Source: an uncultured delta proteobacterium (GTDB taxonomy: Bacteria; Desulfobacterota; Binatia; UBA9968). Taken from it: a DNA stretch of 64,000 nt. The notes under the pieces are model-generated. The model did no database searches. It was not told the DNA's origin and worked only from the letters and a program-made list of their open reading frames with translations. Below, piece after piece: positions 27,009 through 55,142 of the stretch (positions are counted from its first letter, which is position 1; every line of letters starts with the position of its first letter). Location: contig CAWFJP010000031.1 of NCBI GenBank assembly GCA_963816145.1, positions 320,001 to 384,000 of the forward strand, written 5' to 3'. Position numbers and translations under genes: made by a program.

Positions 27009-28181
27009 TCAGCCCGCTCGCGCTGCCGCGAATGAATAGGCGTCGTAGCCGTCTTCGTGAATCAACTTAATGACTTCGTCCTTGGCCGGATCGAAGTTGA
27101 CGCCGATGGGGTCGGCGCCGTTTTGCACGGCCTGGATCTGTTCCCGCAATAATTTGCGATACATGACGACGCCGCGGTCGCCTTCGGCGAGATGTTCCTT
27201 GGAGCGGTCAGCCAGGGGGCCTTGGGTCTCCCAGGCCATGTGGTCCTGGCTGGTGAAATTGTCCATGTGGAATTCACCAGCTTGGTCGGTAGTTCCGATA
27301 TACTCTATCGGGGTGTTTTCCGGCTGCGCGACCGCACTGCCATCTTTGCTTGGGCTGAAGCGGAATTGGTAGACCTGTGTATTGGTGTCATCGATGGGTC
27401 TGCGGAAATGCATGGCGTAACCGATGCGTACGGGAACGAATAAAATATTGGGGAATATCAACGGATGCGGCGTTTCGACGGGGGCGTCGTCGCCTTCGAA
27501 GATGCGTTGCTTCTGGATGCCCGCCCATGTTGGATAATTGACGAATTCAAAGTCAAACTTATTGAGCATGCGATAGTGATAGGGCACATGATCGGGGTCG
27601 CCCTTGAGCTTGAGGGTGTGCGAGTGCAGGTAATAAGTGTGCGTTGGGTCGACCGAGTTTTCCATCGCTTGCAGCCAATTGCAGCGCAGCGTTTCGCAGA
27701 TGTCGACTTGCTTGTTACCGTCGTTGCGCACCAACAGATCCCACTTGGGTAGGAGCGGCTTCTTTTCTGGCGGCCCCATATAGGCGAACAGCAGCCCGGC
27801 GAGTTTTTCCACCGGGTAGGCCAGGTGTTGGATCTTGGCCTTAAAACCGGCTTCGGGATTTTCAAATGGCTGATCGACGCAGCGGCCGCAGGCGTCGTAC
27901 TTCCAACCATGGTAAGGACAGCGGATGCCGTCCTTTTCGACGAAGCCGTAGTAGAGTGACACGCCGCGATGGGAGCATTTCTCGGCGACCAGACCGTAAC
28001 CGCCGGAGCGGTCTTTGTACAACACTAGGTCTTCGCCGAGCACGCGTACGCGCTTCTTCGGTTTGGCATCGTCGAGTTCCGCAGCGGCGCCGATTACCTG
28101 CCAGTAGCGCCGCAAGAGTTGTCCAGCGGGAGTGCCGGGACCGATCCGGCAGAAAAAATCGTTGTCATCGGAAGTGAGCAT
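27009..28181 (-). CDS. Rieske non-heme iron oxygenase alpha subunit (phthalate dioxygenase/LigX-like)
   Basis: CSH...CPYHGW; ENSVDPTH..LH; QD..AWETQG. Confidence 0.92.
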   Translation of the reverse strand: MLTSDDNDFFCRIGPGTPAGQLLRRYWQVIGAAAELDDAKPKKRVRVLGEDLVLYKDRSGGYGLVAEKCSHRGVSLYYGFVEKDGIRCPYHGWKYDACGRCVDQPFENPEAGFKAKIQHLAYPVEKLAGLLFAYMGPPEKKPLLPKWDLLVRNDGNKQVDICETLRCNWLQAMENSVDPTHTYYLHSHTLKLKGDPDHVPYHYRMLNKFDFEFVNYPTWAGIQKQRIFEGDDAPVETPHPLIFPNILFVPVRIGYAMHFRRPIDDTNTQVYQFRFSPSKDGSAVAQPENTPIEYIGTTDQAGEFHMDNFTSQDHMAWETQGPLADRSKEHLAEGDRGVVMYRKLLREQIQAVQNGADPIGVNFDPAKDEVIKLIHEDGYDAYSFAAARAG

Positions 28182-28483
28182 GGCGGTAAACTCCTTATCG
28201 CGATTGAAGCTGTGCCAAGTCGAGCAGCAACAAGATTGTTTCTGACAGTATTAGAAATTTTGCCAAGGTGTCAACTTCGGGGAAGGCGGCGCAGGCAAAC
28301 GGCATTGGGCAATAGCCGAGCGACTCAGAGTCCTCCCCGCCGCATGATTTAGGTTCTGCAGATTGGGCAATGTCTACGTTTTGGGGCAGTGATTTGAATT
28401 CGGAGATTTGCTGCCGAGCCGGAACGGTGGCATCAGCCTTGGAGAAATCACCCGGCGACGGGAACGAGATCCGCGTGCGAGAT

Positions 28484-29593
28484 CTAGCGACGGTTCAGTG
28501 CAATGGTCGTTGCTGGTTTGTCGTTGCCGGTGACATAGGCGTCATGGAAGCCTTCCTTGGCTATCAATGCCGCGCGCAGATTCTCGGCATCCTGGCGCGT
28601 ATCAAAAGTGCCGATACGCAGGCGATGCCAGGTATTTCCATTGATTTCGGCGTCGATGACGAAGGCTTCGTAACCTTTGGCTTTGAGTTTTTGAAGCCAA
28701 TCGTGAGCCAGCGGTTTGTCTGTCGTCGCCATAGCCTGGACGGACCAAGCGTTAGCTGGGGCTTCGCGCTTCGCAGGATGCTCGCTTGCCAAAGTCTGAG
28801 GCTTTGGTGATGCGACGGCCGCAGCAGCGGTCGCTTGTGCTGCGGCGGTATGCGAACCTGTCGGCGAGCTTGTGGTCGCTTCGGTGTTGAGATTGACTGA
28901 GGCTGCCGGTGCGGCGGCGCTGGGCTCAGCGGCAATAACGGTATTATCTGTACTTTCTGTGGCGGTGGGGCTTTCCGCTTGGGCGAGTTGGATCTTTCCG
29001 CTGTCGATTTGCCGTCTCGGCTCGGCGATTGTCGTCGCGTTGCGCATGACGCTGTGGAACCTGTATTTGAGATGAGGCGCTAGCCCGATCAAACCGACGG
29101 CGACGAATATCATCCCGCACAAGGCCCCCGCGAGGCCGAGTCGCTCCGCGTTCAAATGTAATGGCGCTTTTGCTTTGGCCGGCTTGGCCGGGAGCGCCAC
29201 GACTTTATTGCGAGTGGGCTTCTTCTCGCTGGTCACTTCGGCTTTGAAGGCACGCGCTTCGGGAGTGCGCCAGGAGCGATATAGCATGGCGATGCCGATG
29301 GAAGTTTGCGGCGAGCTGATCGGGTTATATTCTTTGATTAGTTCCTGGGTTCTGTTCTCTCGCCGTTCCGGCGGGCAAATCTCGAATGTGAACCCGGTCG
29401 GTTCGAAGCGGCTGAAGCGAAATTTTGTGTGCCGCCGATGATGCAGCAGGGCATCGCGAACATTTGCCGCGTTGCCGATCACGATCTGGTGGCGAAAATT
29501 AAATAGCCCGTAGACGCCCGACACGGTCGGTGCATGCTGGACAATCGAATCTGGTTTGAAGCTGTAGTAGTCGCCGTTATTTCGCCAGGGCAT
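28484..29593 (-). CDS. Degenerate GIY-YIG-like domain - TM - SPOR domain protein (paralogue 1)
   Basis: AP.VSGVYGL..IVIG; TM LAGALCGMIFVAVGLIGL; SPOR WSVQ..LKAKGYEAF..WHRLRIG.F; GGAG RBS. Confidence 0.8.
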   Translation of the reverse strand: MPWRNNGDYYSFKPDSIVQHAPTVSGVYGLFNFRHQIVIGNAANVRDALLHHRRHTKFRFSRFEPTGFTFEICPPERRENRTQELIKEYNPISSPQTSIGIAMLYRSWRTPEARAFKAEVTSEKKPTRNKVVALPAKPAKAKAPLHLNAERLGLAGALCGMIFVAVGLIGLAPHLKYRFHSVMRNATTIAEPRRQIDSGKIQLAQAESPTATESTDNTVIAAEPSAAAPAASVNLNTEATTSSPTGSHTAAAQATAAAAVASPKPQTLASEHPAKREAPANAWSVQAMATTDKPLAHDWLQKLKAKGYEAFVIDAEINGNTWHRLRIGTFDTRQDAENLRAALIAKEGFHDAYVTGNDKPATTIALNRR

Positions 29594-29911
29594 GATAAAA
29601 CTCCGTTCTTGTACTCCGCGATCGGCAAAAAAGTTTTCTTCGCGCGGCGCCTGCTGCCATGCGCCGGGACGGATACATCCGAAGATCGCCACAAGATTAT
29701 TAGTATTCAGTGTAATAAAGCAGTTATTGCGATGGCACGCAAGAAAAACGGCTAATTTAGTACACTGCGCACGGCGCAAGTCGTCATAAATTTCTTCGGA
29801 ATGTTGCGTTGACGCACATTGACATACTCTTTTCGGCGGTGTTATGGCTGCATCGAGCTGTTTCGTCGCTGAAAATCGTTGTCGTGAGCGGCACGAAAGG
29901 AGTTAACTGAT

Positions 29912-30931
29912 ATGGCGAACTATAAGATAATCGATGCCGACGGTCATGTGCGCGAGTCGAACGCCGGTATGCGCGAGTTTCTAGAGCCGCGCTGGCAACG
30001 GCGCAATCTTTTCCCCAACGACGAGTGGGATCGCGACTTGCGCGGTAAGCTCGGTCAGAAGCCGGAGGGCCCGAAAGATCAGCTCGCGGCTATGGACGAA
30101 GACGGTATCGACGTCATGGTGATGTATCCAACGGCGGGGCTGCATGTCTCGGCGCTGCACGAAAAGGATTACGCCACCGCTGTGACCCGGGCTTACAACG
30201 ATTGGCTCTACCACTTTTGCAAAGCCGATACGGCACGCTTGAAGTTCGTCGCGCTGCTGGCGCCGCAGGACCCCAAAGCGGCCGGCGAAGAGTTGGCCCG
30301 CGCCGTCAAAGAGCGTGGCGCGGTGGCCGGCGTGTTGCCGACCTATTTGCCGCAGATGCCGGACTTCGGTGACAGCTTTTACGATCCGATTTACGCCGCC
30401 GCCGAGAGTCTCGGCATCGGTCTGGGATTTCACACCGGTACCTCCGCCGATTCGCTGGGCGGACAGCGCTTTCGCAAGTTTCTTTCGGCCCATACCATCG
30501 ATCATCCGGCCGAGCAGATGATGGCGATGATCGCGACGACTGTCGGCGGTGTGTTCGAGCGTTTTCCCAAGCTCAGCATCGCCTATCTCGAGTCGGGCAT
30601 TGGCTGGGTGCCATATATGATGGACCGGCTCGACGAAGAGGTGGAAAAACGCGGCGGCGACGAAGCGCCGTACCTGACAAAGTTGCCGAGCCAGTACGTC
30701 AAGAGCGGCCGCATCTATTTCGGTGTGGAGTGCGAAGAGAAGACGATTCCCGACGCCATGCGCTGGGGCTTGGAAGACACGATCCTCTATTCGTCCGACT
30801 ACCCGCACTGGGACGGCGACTGGCCGCATACCGTGAAAGGCATCCGCAAGCGTACCGATCTGTCTGACGATGTCAAAAAGAAAATGTTGCATGACAACGT
30901 CGCGCGGTTTTACGGCTTGGAAGAGGCGTAG
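29912..30931 (+). CDS. Amidohydrolase family protein
   Basis: IDADGH, MDEDGID, AYNDWL, GVFERFP, SSDYPH. Confidence 0.92.
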   Translation: MANYKIIDADGHVRESNAGMREFLEPRWQRRNLFPNDEWDRDLRGKLGQKPEGPKDQLAAMDEDGIDVMVMYPTAGLHVSALHEKDYATAVTRAYNDWLYHFCKADTARLKFVALLAPQDPKAAGEELARAVKERGAVAGVLPTYLPQMPDFGDSFYDPIYAAAESLGIGLGFHTGTSADSLGGQRFRKFLSAHTIDHPAEQMMAMIATTVGGVFERFPKLSIAYLESGIGWVPYMMDRLDEEVEKRGGDEAPYLTKLPSQYVKSGRIYFGVECEEKTIPDAMRWGLEDTILYSSDYPHWDGDWPHTVKGIRKRTDLSDDVKKKMLHDNVARFYGLEEA

Positions 30932-33368: not shown

Positions 33369-33616
33369 CTCGCATTGTCACCGGCAGAGGTCGAAAGCTG
33401 CAACGATTTCAATTCTGTCGCCGGGTGGGATCGCCGTTCGCCTGGGTTGGGTTGTCCCCAAAATCGCGCAAGGCCTTGCCGTCGCTCGATCTAGCATCGA
33501 TATGGGGAATTGCGCCGGCGTGTTAAGATGGTTTGTGGTACGGCGGTGAAGTTGTCAATAGCGATCATGTGGTTCCAGCATGGGATTCTCGACAATTGGG
33601 CGCGAAGTGCAGCTAT

Positions 33617-34075
33617 ATGAAGTCAGTTGATGACTATTGCAAGATCTTAGGAGTCGATACTAAAGCTACTTCCAAGGAACTGAAAAAAGCTTACAGAGGG
33701 TTGGTTAAGAAATGGCACCCTGATCAATTTTTGCATGATCCTCATCGGCTAAAAAGTGCCAAGGAAAAACTCCAGGAAATCAATGAAGCATACCATGCGC
33801 TGCAGCTGCTCGTTTTAGATCCCAAAAACCGTTTATCGCAGTCCTCTAAGAGGTCGAGTCAACGTAATCCCGCGCCTCCCCGCAAGACGAACGGCCGAAG
33901 TGTAAAAATGTCCAATGCTCCCACCAAATCATTTGTGGACATGCATTTTGCCTCTTGGCGAAAACCTGTGGCCTTGCTGCGGCGCGTGCTCATAGAAACG
34001 GTGAAAGATCCGTGGATAATCACCGTTTTTATCTTGATGCTGACGTTGGCGATCGCCATGGATTGGTTTTACTAA
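33617..34075 (+). CDS. J-domain (DnaJ-type) protein with C-terminal TM
   Basis: DY..ILGV, KKAYR.LVKKWHPD, EINEAY. Confidence 0.85.
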   Translation: MKSVDDYCKILGVDTKATSKELKKAYRGLVKKWHPDQFLHDPHRLKSAKEKLQEINEAYHALQLLVLDPKNRLSQSSKRSSQRNPAPPRKTNGRSVKMSNAPTKSFVDMHFASWRKPVALLRRVLIETVKDPWIITVFILMLTLAIAMDWFY

Positions 34076-53736: not shown

Positions 53737-54831
53737 TTATTTGCCGGTGACGAAAGCGCTGGCGAGGTTTTCTTTTGACTGTAAATCTTGGCGCGTCTTT
53801 TCAGCTTCTTGGTTGGTGGAAAAGCGGCCGACCCGGACGCGATACCACAGGGCCGAGTTGATTTCGGCTTCGACGATAAACGCGTCGAACCCTTTGCTCT
53901 TTAACTTGTCCTGCAAAAACTGCGCGGCTGATTGATCCTTGGTGGCGGAAATTTGCACAGACCAGGTGTTGGCCGTTAAATCTTTTTTCGCAGCGGGGCT
54001 GGTCACCGGTTTAGATTCTGCGGTGTCCGGTTGGGTGACGTTGAGGGCGCTCGCTTCCAGGTTTTTCTTCATCTTCGCCGATGGGGCGTCGCCGTCTTGG
54101 GCGATGGCGCTGACGACCTTCAGCGGCGGTACCGCCGTCGTATTTTCGGCCAAGCGTTCGCCTTCGATTGCTCTTGTGTCTGCGGCGGTGTCCTCGGATA
54201 CCGCTTCGGCTCGAGATGACGTGTTAGTCAGGTACGCCAGCACCGGCCGGCGGGCCGCAGCCAATTGCAGAGCGGTTTGCCGTCTTTCGGCGATTTTTTG
54301 GCCGGCAATGAAGCCGAAAAATCCCGCTGCCGCGGCGGTGATGACAAAGCTCATCCCGAGAGTCACCAGCTGGCTACGCGAAAAATAAGTCGGTTGTGGA
54401 GTTGCGTCGGGTTCGCTAGCTGTTGGAGCTTCCGGCCACTGAGGAATTGGCGCTAACATTTTTTCTTTGCTGGTATCGTCCTCTGTCGCTTTACGCTCCG
54501 ATTTTGCCGGCGGCAGAGTGGCCAAGGAAAGCAGCTGCAGGGTTTGAATCGATGGGCGAAACTCGGCGATCAATGCCTGAGCGCGGCTTGCGCGCAGATT
54601 AGTTTCACAGACTTCGAATGAAAAATAGCTCGGTTGCTGGCCACGAAACAACTTTTCTGCTTCTTTTCTATGCAGGAGCAGCGCTTCGCGAAGGTCGGCC
54701 GCTTCGCCGATGAAAAGCTGCTGGCGCCGAGTGTGCAGTCCGTAGACACCGGAAACGGCCGGCACGATTCGCTCGACGACCGCGCCCTCGAATGGGTGGC
54801 AATGGCCTTGCGGCTGCCAGGGGTGTGCCAT
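53737..54831 (-). CDS. Degenerate GIY-YIG-like domain - TM - SPOR domain protein (paralogue 2)
   Basis: VP.VSGVYGL..LFIG; TM LGMSFVITAAAAGFFGFIAG; SPOR WSVQISA..LKSKGFDAF..WYRVRVGRF. Confidence 0.8.
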   Translation of the reverse strand: MAHPWQPQGHCHPFEGAVVERIVPAVSGVYGLHTRRQQLFIGEAADLREALLLHRKEAEKLFRGQQPSYFSFEVCETNLRASRAQALIAEFRPSIQTLQLLSLATLPPAKSERKATEDDTSKEKMLAPIPQWPEAPTASEPDATPQPTYFSRSQLVTLGMSFVITAAAAGFFGFIAGQKIAERRQTALQLAAARRPVLAYLTNTSSRAEAVSEDTAADTRAIEGERLAENTTAVPPLKVVSAIAQDGDAPSAKMKKNLEASALNVTQPDTAESKPVTSPAAKKDLTANTWSVQISATKDQSAAQFLQDKLKSKGFDAFIVEAEINSALWYRVRVGRFSTNQEAEKTRQDLQSKENLASAFVTGK

Positions 54832-55142
54832 CAAAAAAGTTCCCCCGTATTTGGGGTGTGTCCCGGACGGTAAGTCGTAAGGTTCTGCAGGCGTCGGTTC
54901 ACGTTCGTTTGGTTTTGTTTCAGTCGGCTAGATGAGCCGTGCTGTTACTGTGCTGCAAAGATTCTATCGAGGCTAAACAACGTCGCTTTGGGTTGGGCCA
55001 GTATCCGGCACCGATTCCAGATAATTATTAGCTTACGAGCCGGATTTGGACAAGTTCTTTGTCGAACAATTCGCGATTTTTTTCGCGTCAGGCGGGAATT
55101 TATGCCGTTCTACCGAATCCGTTTTTGTGCTACAGATGACCA

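What the first reader, a model, noticed from the sequence alone, without database searches (positions are those of the whole stretch)
28484..29593. Pseudo-GIY-YIG - TM - SPOR fusion: candidate DNA-to-septum tether
Seen: the N-terminal ~90 aa read APTVSGVYGLFNFRHQIVIGNAANVRDALLHH...RTQELIKEYNPIS, followed by one TM, an Ala/Pro/Thr linker and a C-terminal SPOR domain. Established: GIY-YIG nucleases use GxY...YIG, a helix-1 Arg, a metal-binding Glu in E-x-x-L-I and a terminal Asn. SPOR domains bind denuded septal glycan, as in FtsN, DamX and DedD. By my alignment the second Tyr, Arg, Glu and Asn positions are V, A, T and S, so the nuclease appears dead. Inference: a cytoplasmic nucleic-acid-binding pseudo-nuclease is linked across the membrane to septal peptidoglycan and could couple DNA state to division. 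I do not recognise this architecture as described.
Basis: partly seen in the sequence, partly recalled or inferred. Interest (0 to 1): 0.8.

Follow-up and report, generated by a model that had tools for sequence, protein, structure and literature searches.

The report
Degenerate GIY-YIG domain on SPOR anchor
This gene encodes a membrane protein whose inner part looks like a DNA-repair nuclease that has lost its key catalytic residues and whose outer part is a cell-wall-binding SPOR domain of the kind that targets proteins to the division site, a combination I found described nowhere and whose function is still unknown.

Summary
Window 28484..29593 (-) encodes a 369-aa protein with four parts. 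Residues ~8-95 are predicted to take a UvrC-type GIY-YIG fold (VIA-align Z 9.4 to 1ycz; family profile vs 1ycz E 8.8e-6). Residues ~149-172 form one TM helix. Residues 173-279 are a disordered Ala/Pro/Thr/Ser-rich linker. Residues 280-356 are a SPOR domain (Pfam E 2.6e-13).

Among relatives, Glu is at the metal-ligand position in 0 of 89, and Arg is present in 0 of 46 fused members. A family-specific set (Y28, H52, E71, R78, R81) is nearly invariant.

The architecture is a real family. There are 108 full-length homologues, mostly soil or wetland MAGs annotated only as "DedD/SPOR". A second paralogue lies in this window at 53737..54834. The fused clade nests among stand-alone ~100-aa GIY-YIG-like proteins.

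Best reading: an N-in/C-out FtsN/DamX-style SPOR protein whose cytoplasmic domain is a non-canonical, probably non-catalytic binding module. DNA binding and coupling of DNA state to division are untested. N-domain charge varies from -6 to +7, and gene neighbourhood is uninformative. This is a new variant of a known kind, of moderate interest.

The parts
28484..29593 (-). Whole CDS, 369 aa plus stop (P0001)
   Evidence: Translation; 108 full-length homologues; short contigs from 4 metatranscriptome runs lie on 29004-29791 at 95-100% identity, a weak hint of transcription only.
29601..29604 (-). GGAG ribosome-binding site, 7 nt before the ATG
   Evidence: Sequence; GGAGTTTT block conserved in L006 and L007.
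29309..29593 (-). Cytoplasmic UvrC-type GIY-YIG-like domain, aa 1-95 (helix 14-20, strands 26-31 and 36-42, helix 45-55, strand 67-72, helix 75-89). It lacks the canonical second Tyr, Arg, Glu and Asn.
   Evidence: AF2 pLDDT 88-97 over aa 10-90; Foldseek top 5 hits are T. maritima UvrC GIY-YIG, TM 0.70; VIA Z 9.4, rmsd 2.2 over 81 residues; profile vs 1ycz E 8.8e-6; residue tallies.
29267..29293 (-). Short helix, aa 101-109, conserved in the closer orthologues (L-W-x-S-W...P-x-A-x-A-F region)
   Evidence: AF2 helix 101-109; consensus.
29150..29266 (-). Basic, disordered cytoplasmic linker, aa 110-148 (Lys/Pro/Ala-rich)
   Evidence: Segment 96-149 has net charge +8 and pI 10.7; pLDDT below 50 for 118-148.
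29078..29149 (-). Single transmembrane helix, aa 149-172
   Evidence: Kyte-Doolittle mean 2.39 at 154-172, the only such segment; AF2 helix 149-170; 20 of 25 family members carry more positive charge in the 25 residues before the TM than after it.
28757..29077 (-). Periplasmic low-complexity Ala/Pro/Thr/Ser linker, aa 173-279
   Evidence: Composition; pLDDT below 50 for 185-275; unalignable across the family.
28526..28756 (-). SPOR domain, aa 280-356 (beta-alpha-beta-beta-alpha-beta)
   Evidence: Pfam PF05036 E 2.6e-13; pLDDT 90-95; Foldseek hits to CwlC 1x60 and RlpA SPOR 6i09, TM 0.71-0.79; Q286 and R324 invariant in 71 of 71.
53737..54834 (-). Paralogue with the same architecture, 365 aa, 32% identity, same pattern of lost catalytic residues
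   Evidence: SPOR E 1e-15; N-domain profile E 4.3e-26; it sits in a different starred subclade of the tree.

Best explanation
This is a bitopic inner-membrane protein with its N terminus in the cytoplasm and its C terminus in the periplasm, built like E. coli FtsN, DamX and DedD. The C-terminal SPOR domain should bind denuded peptidoglycan glycan and so concentrate the protein at division septa. A long disordered linker and one TM helix connect it to a ~95-aa cytoplasmic domain. That domain is homologous to the UvrC-type GIY-YIG nuclease domain. It lacks the superfamily's Arg and metal-binding Glu, plus the second Tyr and the Asn, so it most likely does not cut DNA by the canonical mechanism. 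It probably serves instead as a ligand-binding module held under the septal membrane. A family-specific polar set (Y28, H52, E71, R78, R81) is what selection still maintains. I lean, at about 1 in 3 overall, to a phosphate-bearing ligand such as nucleic acid; a protein partner is nearly as likely. The gene arose by fusing a stand-alone ~100-aa GIY-YIG-like protein to a TM-linker-SPOR scaffold, and it then duplicated. Shown by computation: fold, residue substitutions, single TM, SPOR identity, family and phylogeny. Inferred: septal targeting, lack of catalysis, nature of the ligand.
For: Fold. AF2 gives pLDDT 88-97 for aa 10-90. Foldseek's top 5 hits are all T. maritima UvrC GIY-YIG. VIA-align against 48,161 chains ranks 1ycz (Z 9.4), 2lwf (8.8), 3mx4 (7.7), 1ln0 (6.7) and 2wsh (6.7) first, all GIY-YIG; rank 6 (9u75, Z 4.4) I recall as GIY-YIG too, and the next chain scores 3.9.

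Homology. The family profile matches 1ycz at E 8.8e-6 over 79 positions. Of 45 stand-alone relatives, 4 pass the Pfam GIY-YIG cut-off and 17 list it at E<=1.

Lost residues. Glu at the Glu76 position: 0 of 46 fused, 0 of 43 stand-alone. Arg at Arg39: 0 of 46. Tyr at Tyr29: 3 of 46. Asn at Asn88: 2 of 46. PMC8287910 (passages read) states that the first Tyr, the Arg and the Glu are invariant in the superfamily and that single substitutions abolish SLX1 cleavage.

Retained residues (fused members). Y28 in 44 of 46, H52 in 40 of 46, E71 in 42 of 46, R78 in 42 of 46, R/K81 in 44 of 46.

Topology. One TM, no N-terminal hydrophobic segment, and positive-inside charge bias in 20 of 25 members.

SPOR. 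Pfam 50.5 bits against a cut-off of 21. Fold hits to the RlpA, CwlC, DamX and DedD SPOR domains. The glycan-contacting Gln (RlpA Q270, DamX Q351, per PMC6895207 passages) corresponds to invariant Q286, and an R-x-R basic stretch is conserved.

Architecture. A bioRxiv paper (10.1101/2022.07.01.498525, passage read) describes DamX and FtsN as cytoplasmic domain, TM, unstructured linker, SPOR.

Origin. Fused proteins form one clade (SH-aLRT 86) nested among stand-alone proteins.
Against: No experiment and no coordinate-level inspection was possible. The canonical residues could have been replaced functionally by E71, R78 and R81. Six of 43 stand-alone relatives keep Tyr, Tyr, Arg and Asn but still lack the canonical Glu, which hints that E71 might be an alternative metal ligand in the wider subfamily. 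Septal localisation is inferred only from what SPOR domains do in model organisms. Topology rests on hydropathy, charge bias (5 of 25 members go the other way) and logic, not on a dedicated predictor. The fused clade has 86% SH-aLRT support, is not starred, and contains 4-5 short rows that may be truncated ORFs. The neighbourhood gives no functional support.
Confidence: 0.58

Rival explanations
1. Rewired but active nuclease. The subfamily moved its metal ligand and phosphate clamp to new positions (E71 on strand 3, R78/R81 on the following helix) while keeping the general-base Tyr (Y28) and His52. On this reading the protein is a septum-anchored endonuclease acting on DNA, or another phosphodiester, near the closing septum.
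For: E71 is conserved in 42 of 46 fused and 42 of 43 stand-alone proteins. R/K81 is conserved in 44 of 46 and 41 of 43, and R78 in 42 of 46 and 35 of 43. Six of 43 stand-alone relatives keep the Y-Y-R-N constellation with E71 but never the canonical Glu. In the profile alignment E71 and R81 replace UvrC V65 and L75, the latter next to Glu76.
Against: In the fused clade 0 of 47 sequences keep the Tyr-Tyr-Arg-Asn set, and the commonest pattern is Y-F-A-Q. Arg and Glu are described as invariant and individually essential in the superfamily (PMC8287910 passages). I know of no precedent for residue migration in GIY-YIG (recalled, not searched specifically). An E71-R81 pair could equally be a structural salt bridge. 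Whether these residues face the old active site could not be checked, because no coordinates were available.
Confidence: 0.15
2. One reading: the N-domain binds chromosomal DNA without cutting it and ties DNA state (unsegregated or damaged DNA) to septal peptidoglycan, regulating division.
For: Every characterised GIY-YIG domain found by the fold searches acts on DNA. The cytoplasmic juxtamembrane linker is strongly basic (+8, Lys/Pro/Ala-rich). Y28 and H52, which contact phosphate or water in active enzymes (PMC8287910 passages), are retained.
Against: N-domain net charge runs from -6 to +7 across 25 members, with no consistent basic surface. The basic active-site positions Lys32 and Arg39 are E/S/A/N and A in fused members. 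No repair, segregation or division genes are conserved next to it. The simple promoter scan showed nothing special, and I did not run a LexA-box search.
Confidence: 0.2
3. Not a division protein. On this reading SPOR merely anchors the protein to peptidoglycan (for example at poles or generally), and the cytoplasmic domain sequesters or signals to a protein partner in the manner of anti-sigma or other transmembrane signalling proteins.
For: The genome has 8 SPOR-domain ORFs fused to very different modules: secretin, S11 carboxypeptidase, RlpA-like, a lipoprotein. SPOR is therefore used here as a general wall-targeting tag. A short classical bitopic SPOR protein (L036) already exists that could fill the FtsN/DedD role.
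Against: All SPOR proteins studied so far are said to act in division or morphogenesis (PMC6895207 introduction passage). No sigma factor or regulator is a conserved neighbour.
Confidence: 0.1

Closest known systems
E. coli DamX / FtsN / DedD (bitopic SPOR division proteins)
   Same: Same order of parts: N-terminal cytoplasmic region, one TM helix, long unstructured periplasmic linker, C-terminal SPOR (bioRxiv 10.1101/2022.07.01.498525 passage; model). The SPOR fold and the key Gln are retained. Sources label homologues 'DedD' or 'FtsN'.
   Different: The cytoplasmic part is a folded ~95-aa GIY-YIG-like domain, not the short tail of FtsN or DedD. NCBIfam DamX scores 21.3 bits against a cut-off of 256, and RlpA 31.5 against 201. 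No FtsN model matched at E<=10, and the FtsN essential domain was not looked for specifically.
UvrC N-terminal GIY-YIG endonuclease domain (T. maritima, PDB 1ycz/1yd0-1yd5)
   Same: It is the best structural and sequence match: Z 9.4, rmsd 2.2 A over 81 residues, 22% identity, and profile E 8.8e-6. It shares the N-terminal helix plus the 'P-x-x-(P/S)-G-V-Y' entry into strand 1, the first Tyr, and a His/Tyr at position 43.
   Different: Tyr29, Lys32, Arg39, Glu76 and Asn88 are replaced by V, N, A, T and S. There is no UvrB-binding, RNase-H-like or HhH domain, and the NCBIfam UvrC model scores 16.4 bits against a cut-off of 818. The genome's own UvrC, on contig 29, keeps all canonical residues.
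Unnamed stand-alone ~93-135-aa GIY-YIG-like proteins (hypothetical proteins, commonest label Acidobacteriota)
   Same: They are the closest sequence relatives of the N-domain: 86 of the best 150 representatives. They share E71, R78 and R81, and they also lack the canonical Glu (0 of 43).
   Different: They have no TM and no SPOR. They more often keep Tyr29 (22 of 43), Arg39 (9 of 43) and Asn88 (22 of 43). Four of 45 pass the Pfam GIY-YIG cut-off, whereas GIY-YIG is not among the 25 commonest of the 45 Pfam families matched at E<=1 by the 71 fused members.
SOS-induced division inhibitors with a peptidoglycan-binding domain (B. subtilis YneA, mycobacterial ChiZ). This comparison is recalled and not tested here.
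   Same: Conceptually similar: a small membrane protein with a wall-binding domain (LysM there, SPOR here) linking DNA status to septation.
   Different: There is no sequence or fold relation. Those proteins have no nuclease-like cytoplasmic domain, and no evidence here ties this gene to DNA damage.

Membership tests
GIY-YIG superfamily (fold and homology) | Three-stranded sheet with flanking helices (beta-beta-alpha...beta-alpha), superposable on solved GIY-YIG domains | tested here: met
   AF2 elements E26-31, E36-42, H45-55, E67-72, H75-89. VIA Z 9.4, 8.8, 7.7, 6.7 and 6.7 for five GIY-YIG structures, with the first chain I do not take for GIY-YIG at 3.9. Foldseek TM 0.70. This is a predicted model, not a solved one.
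GIY-YIG superfamily (fold and homology) | Significant sequence-profile similarity | tested here: met
   Profile A2 vs 1ycz E 8.8e-6. Four of 45 stand-alone relatives exceed the Pfam PF01541 cut-off. The protein itself gets no Pfam GIY-YIG hit and only a weak UvrC NCBIfam hit, E 0.0024.
GIY-YIG catalytic nucleases | First Tyr (GIY motif) | tested here: met
   Y28 aligns to UvrC Y19; Tyr in 44 of 46 fused members.
GIY-YIG catalytic nucleases | Second Tyr (YIG motif) | tested here: not met
   V38 here; Tyr in 3 of 46 fused members (F 17, L 11, V 6, I 4).
GIY-YIG catalytic nucleases | Invariant helix-1 Arg | tested here: not met
   A48 here; Arg in 0 of 46 fused members and 9 of 43 stand-alone.
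GIY-YIG catalytic nucleases | Invariant metal-binding Glu | tested here: not met
   T82 here; Glu in 0 of 46 fused and 0 of 43 stand-alone.
GIY-YIG catalytic nucleases | C-terminal Asn | tested here: not met
   S94 here; Asn in 2 of 46 fused members (Q in 31).
SPOR domain (PF05036) | Profile match above the curated cut-off, with the RNP-like beta-alpha-beta-beta-alpha-beta fold | tested here: met
   50.5 bits against 21. SPOR matched in 71 of 71 family members. pLDDT 90-95. Foldseek hits to 6i09 (TM 0.79) and 1x60 (TM 0.71).
SPOR domain (PF05036) | Conserved glycan-contacting Gln on strand 1, a small residue three positions later, and a basic patch | tested here: met
   Q286 aligns with the DamX Gln and is invariant in 71 of 71. 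A289 is the small residue. R324 is invariant and R326 at least 90% conserved. Residue roles come from PMC6895207 passages.
SPOR domain (PF05036) | Binding to denuded glycan and septal localisation | not testable with these tools
   Needs a binding assay or microscopy.
Bitopic FtsN/DamX/DedD-type SPOR proteins | N-in cytoplasmic part, single TM, disordered periplasmic linker, C-terminal SPOR | tested here: met
   Topology is inferred from hydropathy, charge bias (20 of 25) and the absence of a signal peptide; DeepTMHMM was not available.
FtsN / DamX / RlpA orthology | Equivalog-level sequence match | tested here: not met
   NCBIfam DamX 21.3 bits against 256; RlpA 31.5 against 201; no FtsN model hit at E<=10.
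UvrC (excinuclease ABC subunit C) | Full-length architecture with UvrB-binding, endonuclease V-like and HhH domains | tested here: not met
   NCBIfam UvrC 16.4 bits against 818, covering residues 16-57 only. The rest of the protein is TM, linker and SPOR.

The most novel reading that the evidence does not exclude
The cytoplasmic GIY-YIG-derived module recognises, or with a rewired E71/R78/R81/Y28/H52 site even cuts, DNA that lies under the constricting septum. The protein would then be a peptidoglycan-positioned sensor or processor of chromosomal DNA at the division site, a physical link between septal wall remodelling and DNA that no known SPOR protein provides. The two conserved paralogues would act as a pair.
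Probability: 0.12. Interest if true: 0.8.

Novelty: new variant of a known kind. Interest (0 to 1): 0.5.

Why it matters
SPOR proteins are the best-understood way bacteria target proteins to the division septum. Their cytoplasmic parts are usually short tails or uncharacterised regions. Here a whole family couples that targeting device to a folded, nuclease-derived domain. The family has at least 108 protein clusters, often two paralogues per genome, from wetland and soil lineages. Standard annotation cannot see the N-domain: Pfam GIY-YIG was not among the 25 commonest families in the 71 members scanned, and databases call these proteins 'DedD' or 'SPOR domain-containing'.

The finding gives two things. 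One is a clear example of a GIY-YIG clade that has lost the residues described as invariant in the superfamily. The other is a tractable hypothesis: residues 1-110 can be expressed, assayed and crystallised, and the full protein can be localised in E. coli. If the domain binds DNA or a divisome component, it would add a new kind of cytoplasm-to-septal-wall connection. If it binds nothing relevant, it remains a well-defined pseudo-enzyme family.

Tried and rejected
**Gene neighbourhood.** I called ORFs in 22 related loci plus both window copies and clustered them. Only the closest orthologues (window copy A, L006, L007, L009) share neighbours: amidohydrolase and Rieske oxygenase. Other recurrent neighbours are hydrolase, UbiD, CMD, enoyl-CoA hydratase, PLD and Lon. 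Nothing is related to division or repair, so context gives no functional clue.

**Promoter and terminator scan of 28150-29950.** It found 3 promoter-like sites against 1.0 +/- 1.0 expected, none obviously serving this gene. No LexA-box search was done.

**Earlier scan notes.** Nothing found.

**ESM Atlas by features.** It returned only unnamed ~100-aa clusters, some with GIY-YIG or DUF7508 on a minority of members. This is consistent with the rest but adds nothing.

**Taxon tallies.**
- In a sample of the genome's own phylum, 3 of 201 genomes matched at E<=1e-6, and only G000 matched strongly.
- In its class, 12 of 151 matched. Strong fused-type matches were only G000 and 2 of 3 other genomes of the same genus.
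- In the phylum of G346, 3 of 251 matched at E<=1e-8.
- Only 19-33 first-look candidates per genome were scored, so these are lower bounds. They show a patchy distribution, not absence.

**Context of stand-alone relatives (L045, L046, L052-L055).** The flanks are too short and high-GC ORF calling too noisy to use.

**N-terminal Pro idea.** I considered an N-terminal proline acting as a catalytic nucleophile after Met removal. I dropped it because a whole subgroup has an N-terminal extension with Ser at that place.

**RNA evidence.** Contigs of 151-218 nt from 4 metatranscriptome runs (4 studies) lie on 29004-29791 at 95-100% identity. Contigs from RNA libraries do not prove transcription, and parts without cover mean nothing.

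**Not run.** Complex prediction was not run because I claim no specific partner.

**Literature.**
- 'GIY-YIG' + 'SPOR domain' gave 1 paper, which lists two unrelated genes in a table.
- 'SPOR domain' + 'nuclease domain' gave 2 papers, judged unrelated from title and abstract only.
- 'GIY-YIG' + 'pseudoenzyme' gave 0 papers.
- 'GIY-YIG' + 'catalytically inactive' + 'domain architecture' + 'membrane' gave 3 papers on toxins or defence, listing only.
Full report
**1. What is there**

The longest possible ORF starts upstream at a TTG (431 aa). The ATG at 29593 is the better start for three reasons:
- a GGAG lies 7 nt upstream;
- most homologues begin at the same M-P-W;
- the GGAGTTTT block is conserved in two syntenic orthologue loci.

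Pfam finds a SPOR domain at 280-349 (E 2.6e-13, 50.5 bits against a cut-off of 21) and nothing else. NCBIfam adds only sub-threshold hits: RlpA and DamX through the SPOR end, and a UvrC model over residues 16-57 at E 0.0024. A single hydrophobic segment (154-172, Kyte-Doolittle mean 2.39) is the only candidate TM, and the N terminus is not hydrophobic.

**2. The N-terminal domain has a GIY-YIG fold**

A phmmer search of residues 1-110 against 1.84 billion representatives found 356 relatives at E<=1e-3. Of the best 150:
- 49 have a TM and SPOR;
- 10 have a TM but no SPOR, at lengths of 164-318 aa (I read most as truncated ORFs, which I did not check);
- 5 have SPOR with a weaker hydrophobic segment;
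- 86 are stand-alone proteins, mostly 93-135 aa.

Of 45 stand-alone relatives scanned, 17 list Pfam GIY-YIG at E<=1 and 4 exceed its cut-off. A profile of the N-domain plus 43 stand-alone relatives matches the T. maritima UvrC GIY-YIG domain (1ycz) at E 8.8e-6 over 79 positions.

AlphaFold2 on a 90-sequence alignment gives a confident model, with pLDDT about 85-94 for residues 10-90. Its elements are helix 14-20, strands 26-31 and 36-42, helix 45-55, strand 67-72 and helix 75-89. The full-length run agrees, with pLDDT 88-97.

Foldseek against the PDB ranks five T. maritima UvrC GIY-YIG entries first (E 3e-4 to 9e-4, target-normalised TM 0.70). VIA-align against 48,161 representative chains, which is independent of Foldseek, ranks these first:
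- UvrC (Z 9.4, rmsd 2.2 A over 81 residues);
- the plant GRXS16 N-domain (Z 8.8);
- R.Eco29kI (Z 7.7);
- I-TevI (Z 6.7);
- T4 EndoII (Z 6.7).

Rank 6 is 9u75 (Z 4.4), which I recall as GIY-YIG too, and the next chain scores 3.9.

**3. Catalytic residues**

I counted UvrC residues from the alignment printed. The numbering agrees with the Y19F, Y29F, Y43F and N88A mutant titles. The map is:

| UvrC | This protein |
|---|---|
| Y19 | Y28 |
| Y29 | V38 |
| K32 | N41 |
| R39 | A48 |
| Y43 | H52 |
| E76 | T82 |
| N88 | S94 |

PMC8287910 (passages read) states that the first Tyr, the Arg and the Glu are invariant in the superfamily. It also states that the Glu binds the metal, that the His/Tyr position varies, and that single substitutions abolish SLX1 cleavage.

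Tallies across 46 fused and 43 stand-alone relatives:

| Position | Fused (of 46) | Stand-alone (of 43) |
|---|---|---|
| Glu at the Glu76 position | 0 | 0 |
| Arg at Arg39 | 0 | 9 |
| Tyr at Tyr29 | 3 | 22 |
| Asn at Asn88 | 2 | 22 |
| Tyr at Tyr19 | 44 | 36 |
| H52 | 40 | 30 |
| E71 | 42 | 42 |
| R78 | 42 | 35 |
| R/K81 | 44 | 41 |

No fused sequence (0 of 47, query included) keeps the Tyr-Tyr-Arg-Asn set. Six of 43 stand-alone proteins do, yet they still lack the canonical Glu. The genome's own UvrC keeps all canonical residues.

The fused clade is therefore not a canonical GIY-YIG nuclease. 'Dead' is an inference, because a conserved polar constellation is clearly under selection. I could not check where E71, R78 and R81 sit in three dimensions, since coordinates are not exposed.

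**4. Membrane topology and the periplasmic half**

The full-length model (71-sequence alignment) shows a disordered basic stretch (118-148), a helix at 149-170, a disordered stretch (185-275) and a SPOR fold at 283-356 with pLDDT 90-95. Its best PDB matches are:
- CwlC SPOR (TM 0.71);
- RlpA SPOR (TM 0.78-0.79, rmsd 2.1-2.2);
- the DamX and DedD SPOR entries (TM 0.46 and 0.33);
- interleaved with these, UvrC GIY-YIG for the N-domain.

Q286 aligns with the DamX Gln and is invariant in 71 of 71 members, as is R324. PMC6895207 (passages read) identifies that Gln, the small residue three positions later (A289 here) and a basic patch as the glycan-contacting features.

Three observations support an N-in/C-out orientation. 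There is no signal peptide. There is a single TM. Twenty of 25 members carry more positive charge before the TM than after it. SPOR also needs access to peptidoglycan. This is the layout described for DamX and FtsN (bioRxiv 10.1101/2022.07.01.498525, passage read).

**5. Family, paralogy and origin**

There are 108 full-length homologues at E<=1e-3, down to about 27% identity. Sources name them only 'DedD', 'FtsN' or 'SPOR domain-containing'. SPOR was matched in 71 of 71 members, and GIY-YIG is not among the 25 commonest of the 45 Pfam families matched at E<=1. Domain databases therefore cannot show this architecture.

Twenty-five loci in species-representative genomes carry MAG labels such as Candidatus Binatia, Deltaproteobacteria, Syntrophobacter, Thermodesulfobacteriota, Verrucomicrobiia/Udaeobacter, Blastocatellia/Pyrinomonadaceae and Chloroflexota/Limnocylindrales. 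Some of these labels may reflect binning error.

The distribution is patchy. In the genome's own class, strong matches occur only in its own genus: G000 and 2 of 3 other genomes.

The window holds a second copy at 53737..54834 (365 aa, 32% identity) with the same architecture and the same pattern of lost residues. At least three other genomes also carry two copies: G206, and MFD05567.bin.2.108 and MFD04850.bin.2.104.

In an N-domain tree rooted on the genome's UvrC, all 47 fused rows fall in one clade (SH-aLRT 86, not starred) together with 4-5 short rows. That clade nests among stand-alone proteins, and the two window copies sit in different starred subclades. The alignment has only 96 columns, so deep branches are weak. 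The simplest history is one fusion of a small GIY-YIG-like protein to a TM-linker-SPOR scaffold, followed by an old duplication.

**6. Context**

The immediate neighbours are metabolic: Rieske oxygenase, amidohydrolases, a solute-binding protein, glyoxalase and ABM monooxygenase. Neighbours are conserved only among the closest orthologues.

The genome carries 8 SPOR ORFs. By my reading of the translations, not by domain scans, they include a short classical bitopic SPOR protein, an RlpA-like lipoprotein, and secretin-SPOR and S11 peptidase-SPOR fusions. The organism is therefore a diderm that uses SPOR widely, and this protein need not be its FtsN.

Near-identical DNA is present in 14 wetland or soil metagenome runs from 13 studies. 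Short contigs from 4 metatranscriptome runs lie on the 5' half and leader, which is a weak hint of expression.

**7. Interpretation**

- **Most likely (about 0.58).** This is an FtsN/DamX-style septum-targeted membrane protein whose cytoplasmic domain is a nuclease-derived, non-canonical and probably non-catalytic binding module.
- **Ligand.** It is open. Nucleic acid is plausible from ancestry and the basic linker (+8). It is weakened by the variable N-domain charge (-6 to +7) and the loss of both basic active-site residues.
- **Rewired active nuclease (about 0.15).** This stays alive because of the E71/R78/R81 conservation and the six stand-alone proteins with an otherwise complete site.
It is a sub-case of the best reading that nothing here tests.

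**8. Novelty**

Four literature searches found no description of a GIY-YIG-SPOR protein or of a GIY-YIG pseudo-enzyme clade (with 52, 43, 69 and 70). The library lacks most subscription journals, so this is not proof of absence.

I rate the finding a new variant of a known kind: bitopic SPOR proteins, with a new cytoplasmic module, plus a newly recognised degenerate GIY-YIG clade. Interest is 0.5. The architecture is real, conserved and hidden from annotation, but its function is still speculative.

Noticed in passing
window 29712-29752 (- strand), upstream of the gene: A ~40-nt block is nearly identical in the window, L006 and L007. It contains two short palindromes, TTGCG-N6-CGCAA and AATAA-N5-TTATT. 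It lies in the intergenic region shared with the divergent amidohydrolase gene and could be an operator for either gene.
   Followed up: no
L036 (G000 contig 4) compared with window 53737-54834 and family members P0048, P0084 and P0092: The genome's short classical bitopic SPOR protein has a juxtamembrane motif Y-Y-L-S-R-G-Q-M just before its TM. This resembles F/Y-F-S-R-x-Q-L/M before the TM in the second window paralogue and several family members. It hints that the TM-linker-SPOR half derives from such a protein. The motif is short and chance is not excluded.
   Followed up: no
L035, L038, L040, L041, L042 (G000 contigs 4, 14, 17, 10): Six further SPOR ORFs exist in the genome. By my reading of the translations (not scanned against Pfam) they include a secretin-like protein with a C-terminal SPOR, an S11 D-Ala-D-Ala carboxypeptidase-like protein with SPOR, an RlpA-like lipoprotein, a lipoprotein with an unknown domain, and a very Pro-rich protein with an open frame of at least 585 aa.
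   Followed up: partly
L053 and L054 (G479 contigs 6 and 13): A stand-alone relative that keeps the Y-V-G and Arg motifs lies in two loci with the same ORF coordinates and the same printed ORF starts over 3.3 kb in one genome (the DNA itself was not compared). This suggests a repeated or mobile segment.
   Followed up: no
L026 6001-7034: In one MAG the orthologue is called as two adjacent ORFs. This may be a frameshift, an internal stop or an assembly error.
   Followed up: no
window 33533-34075 (+): A 180-aa ORF with a DnaJ (J) domain at residues 34-91. From its printed sequence I read a Ser/Pro/basic stretch and a hydrophobic C-terminal segment, which would make it a possible membrane-anchored J-protein.
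   Followed up: no
window 29634-29791: One metatranscriptome contig (run X17) lies wholly upstream of the ATG. If it is RNA-derived, the leader would be at least ~200 nt and would cover the conserved palindromic block.
   Followed up: no
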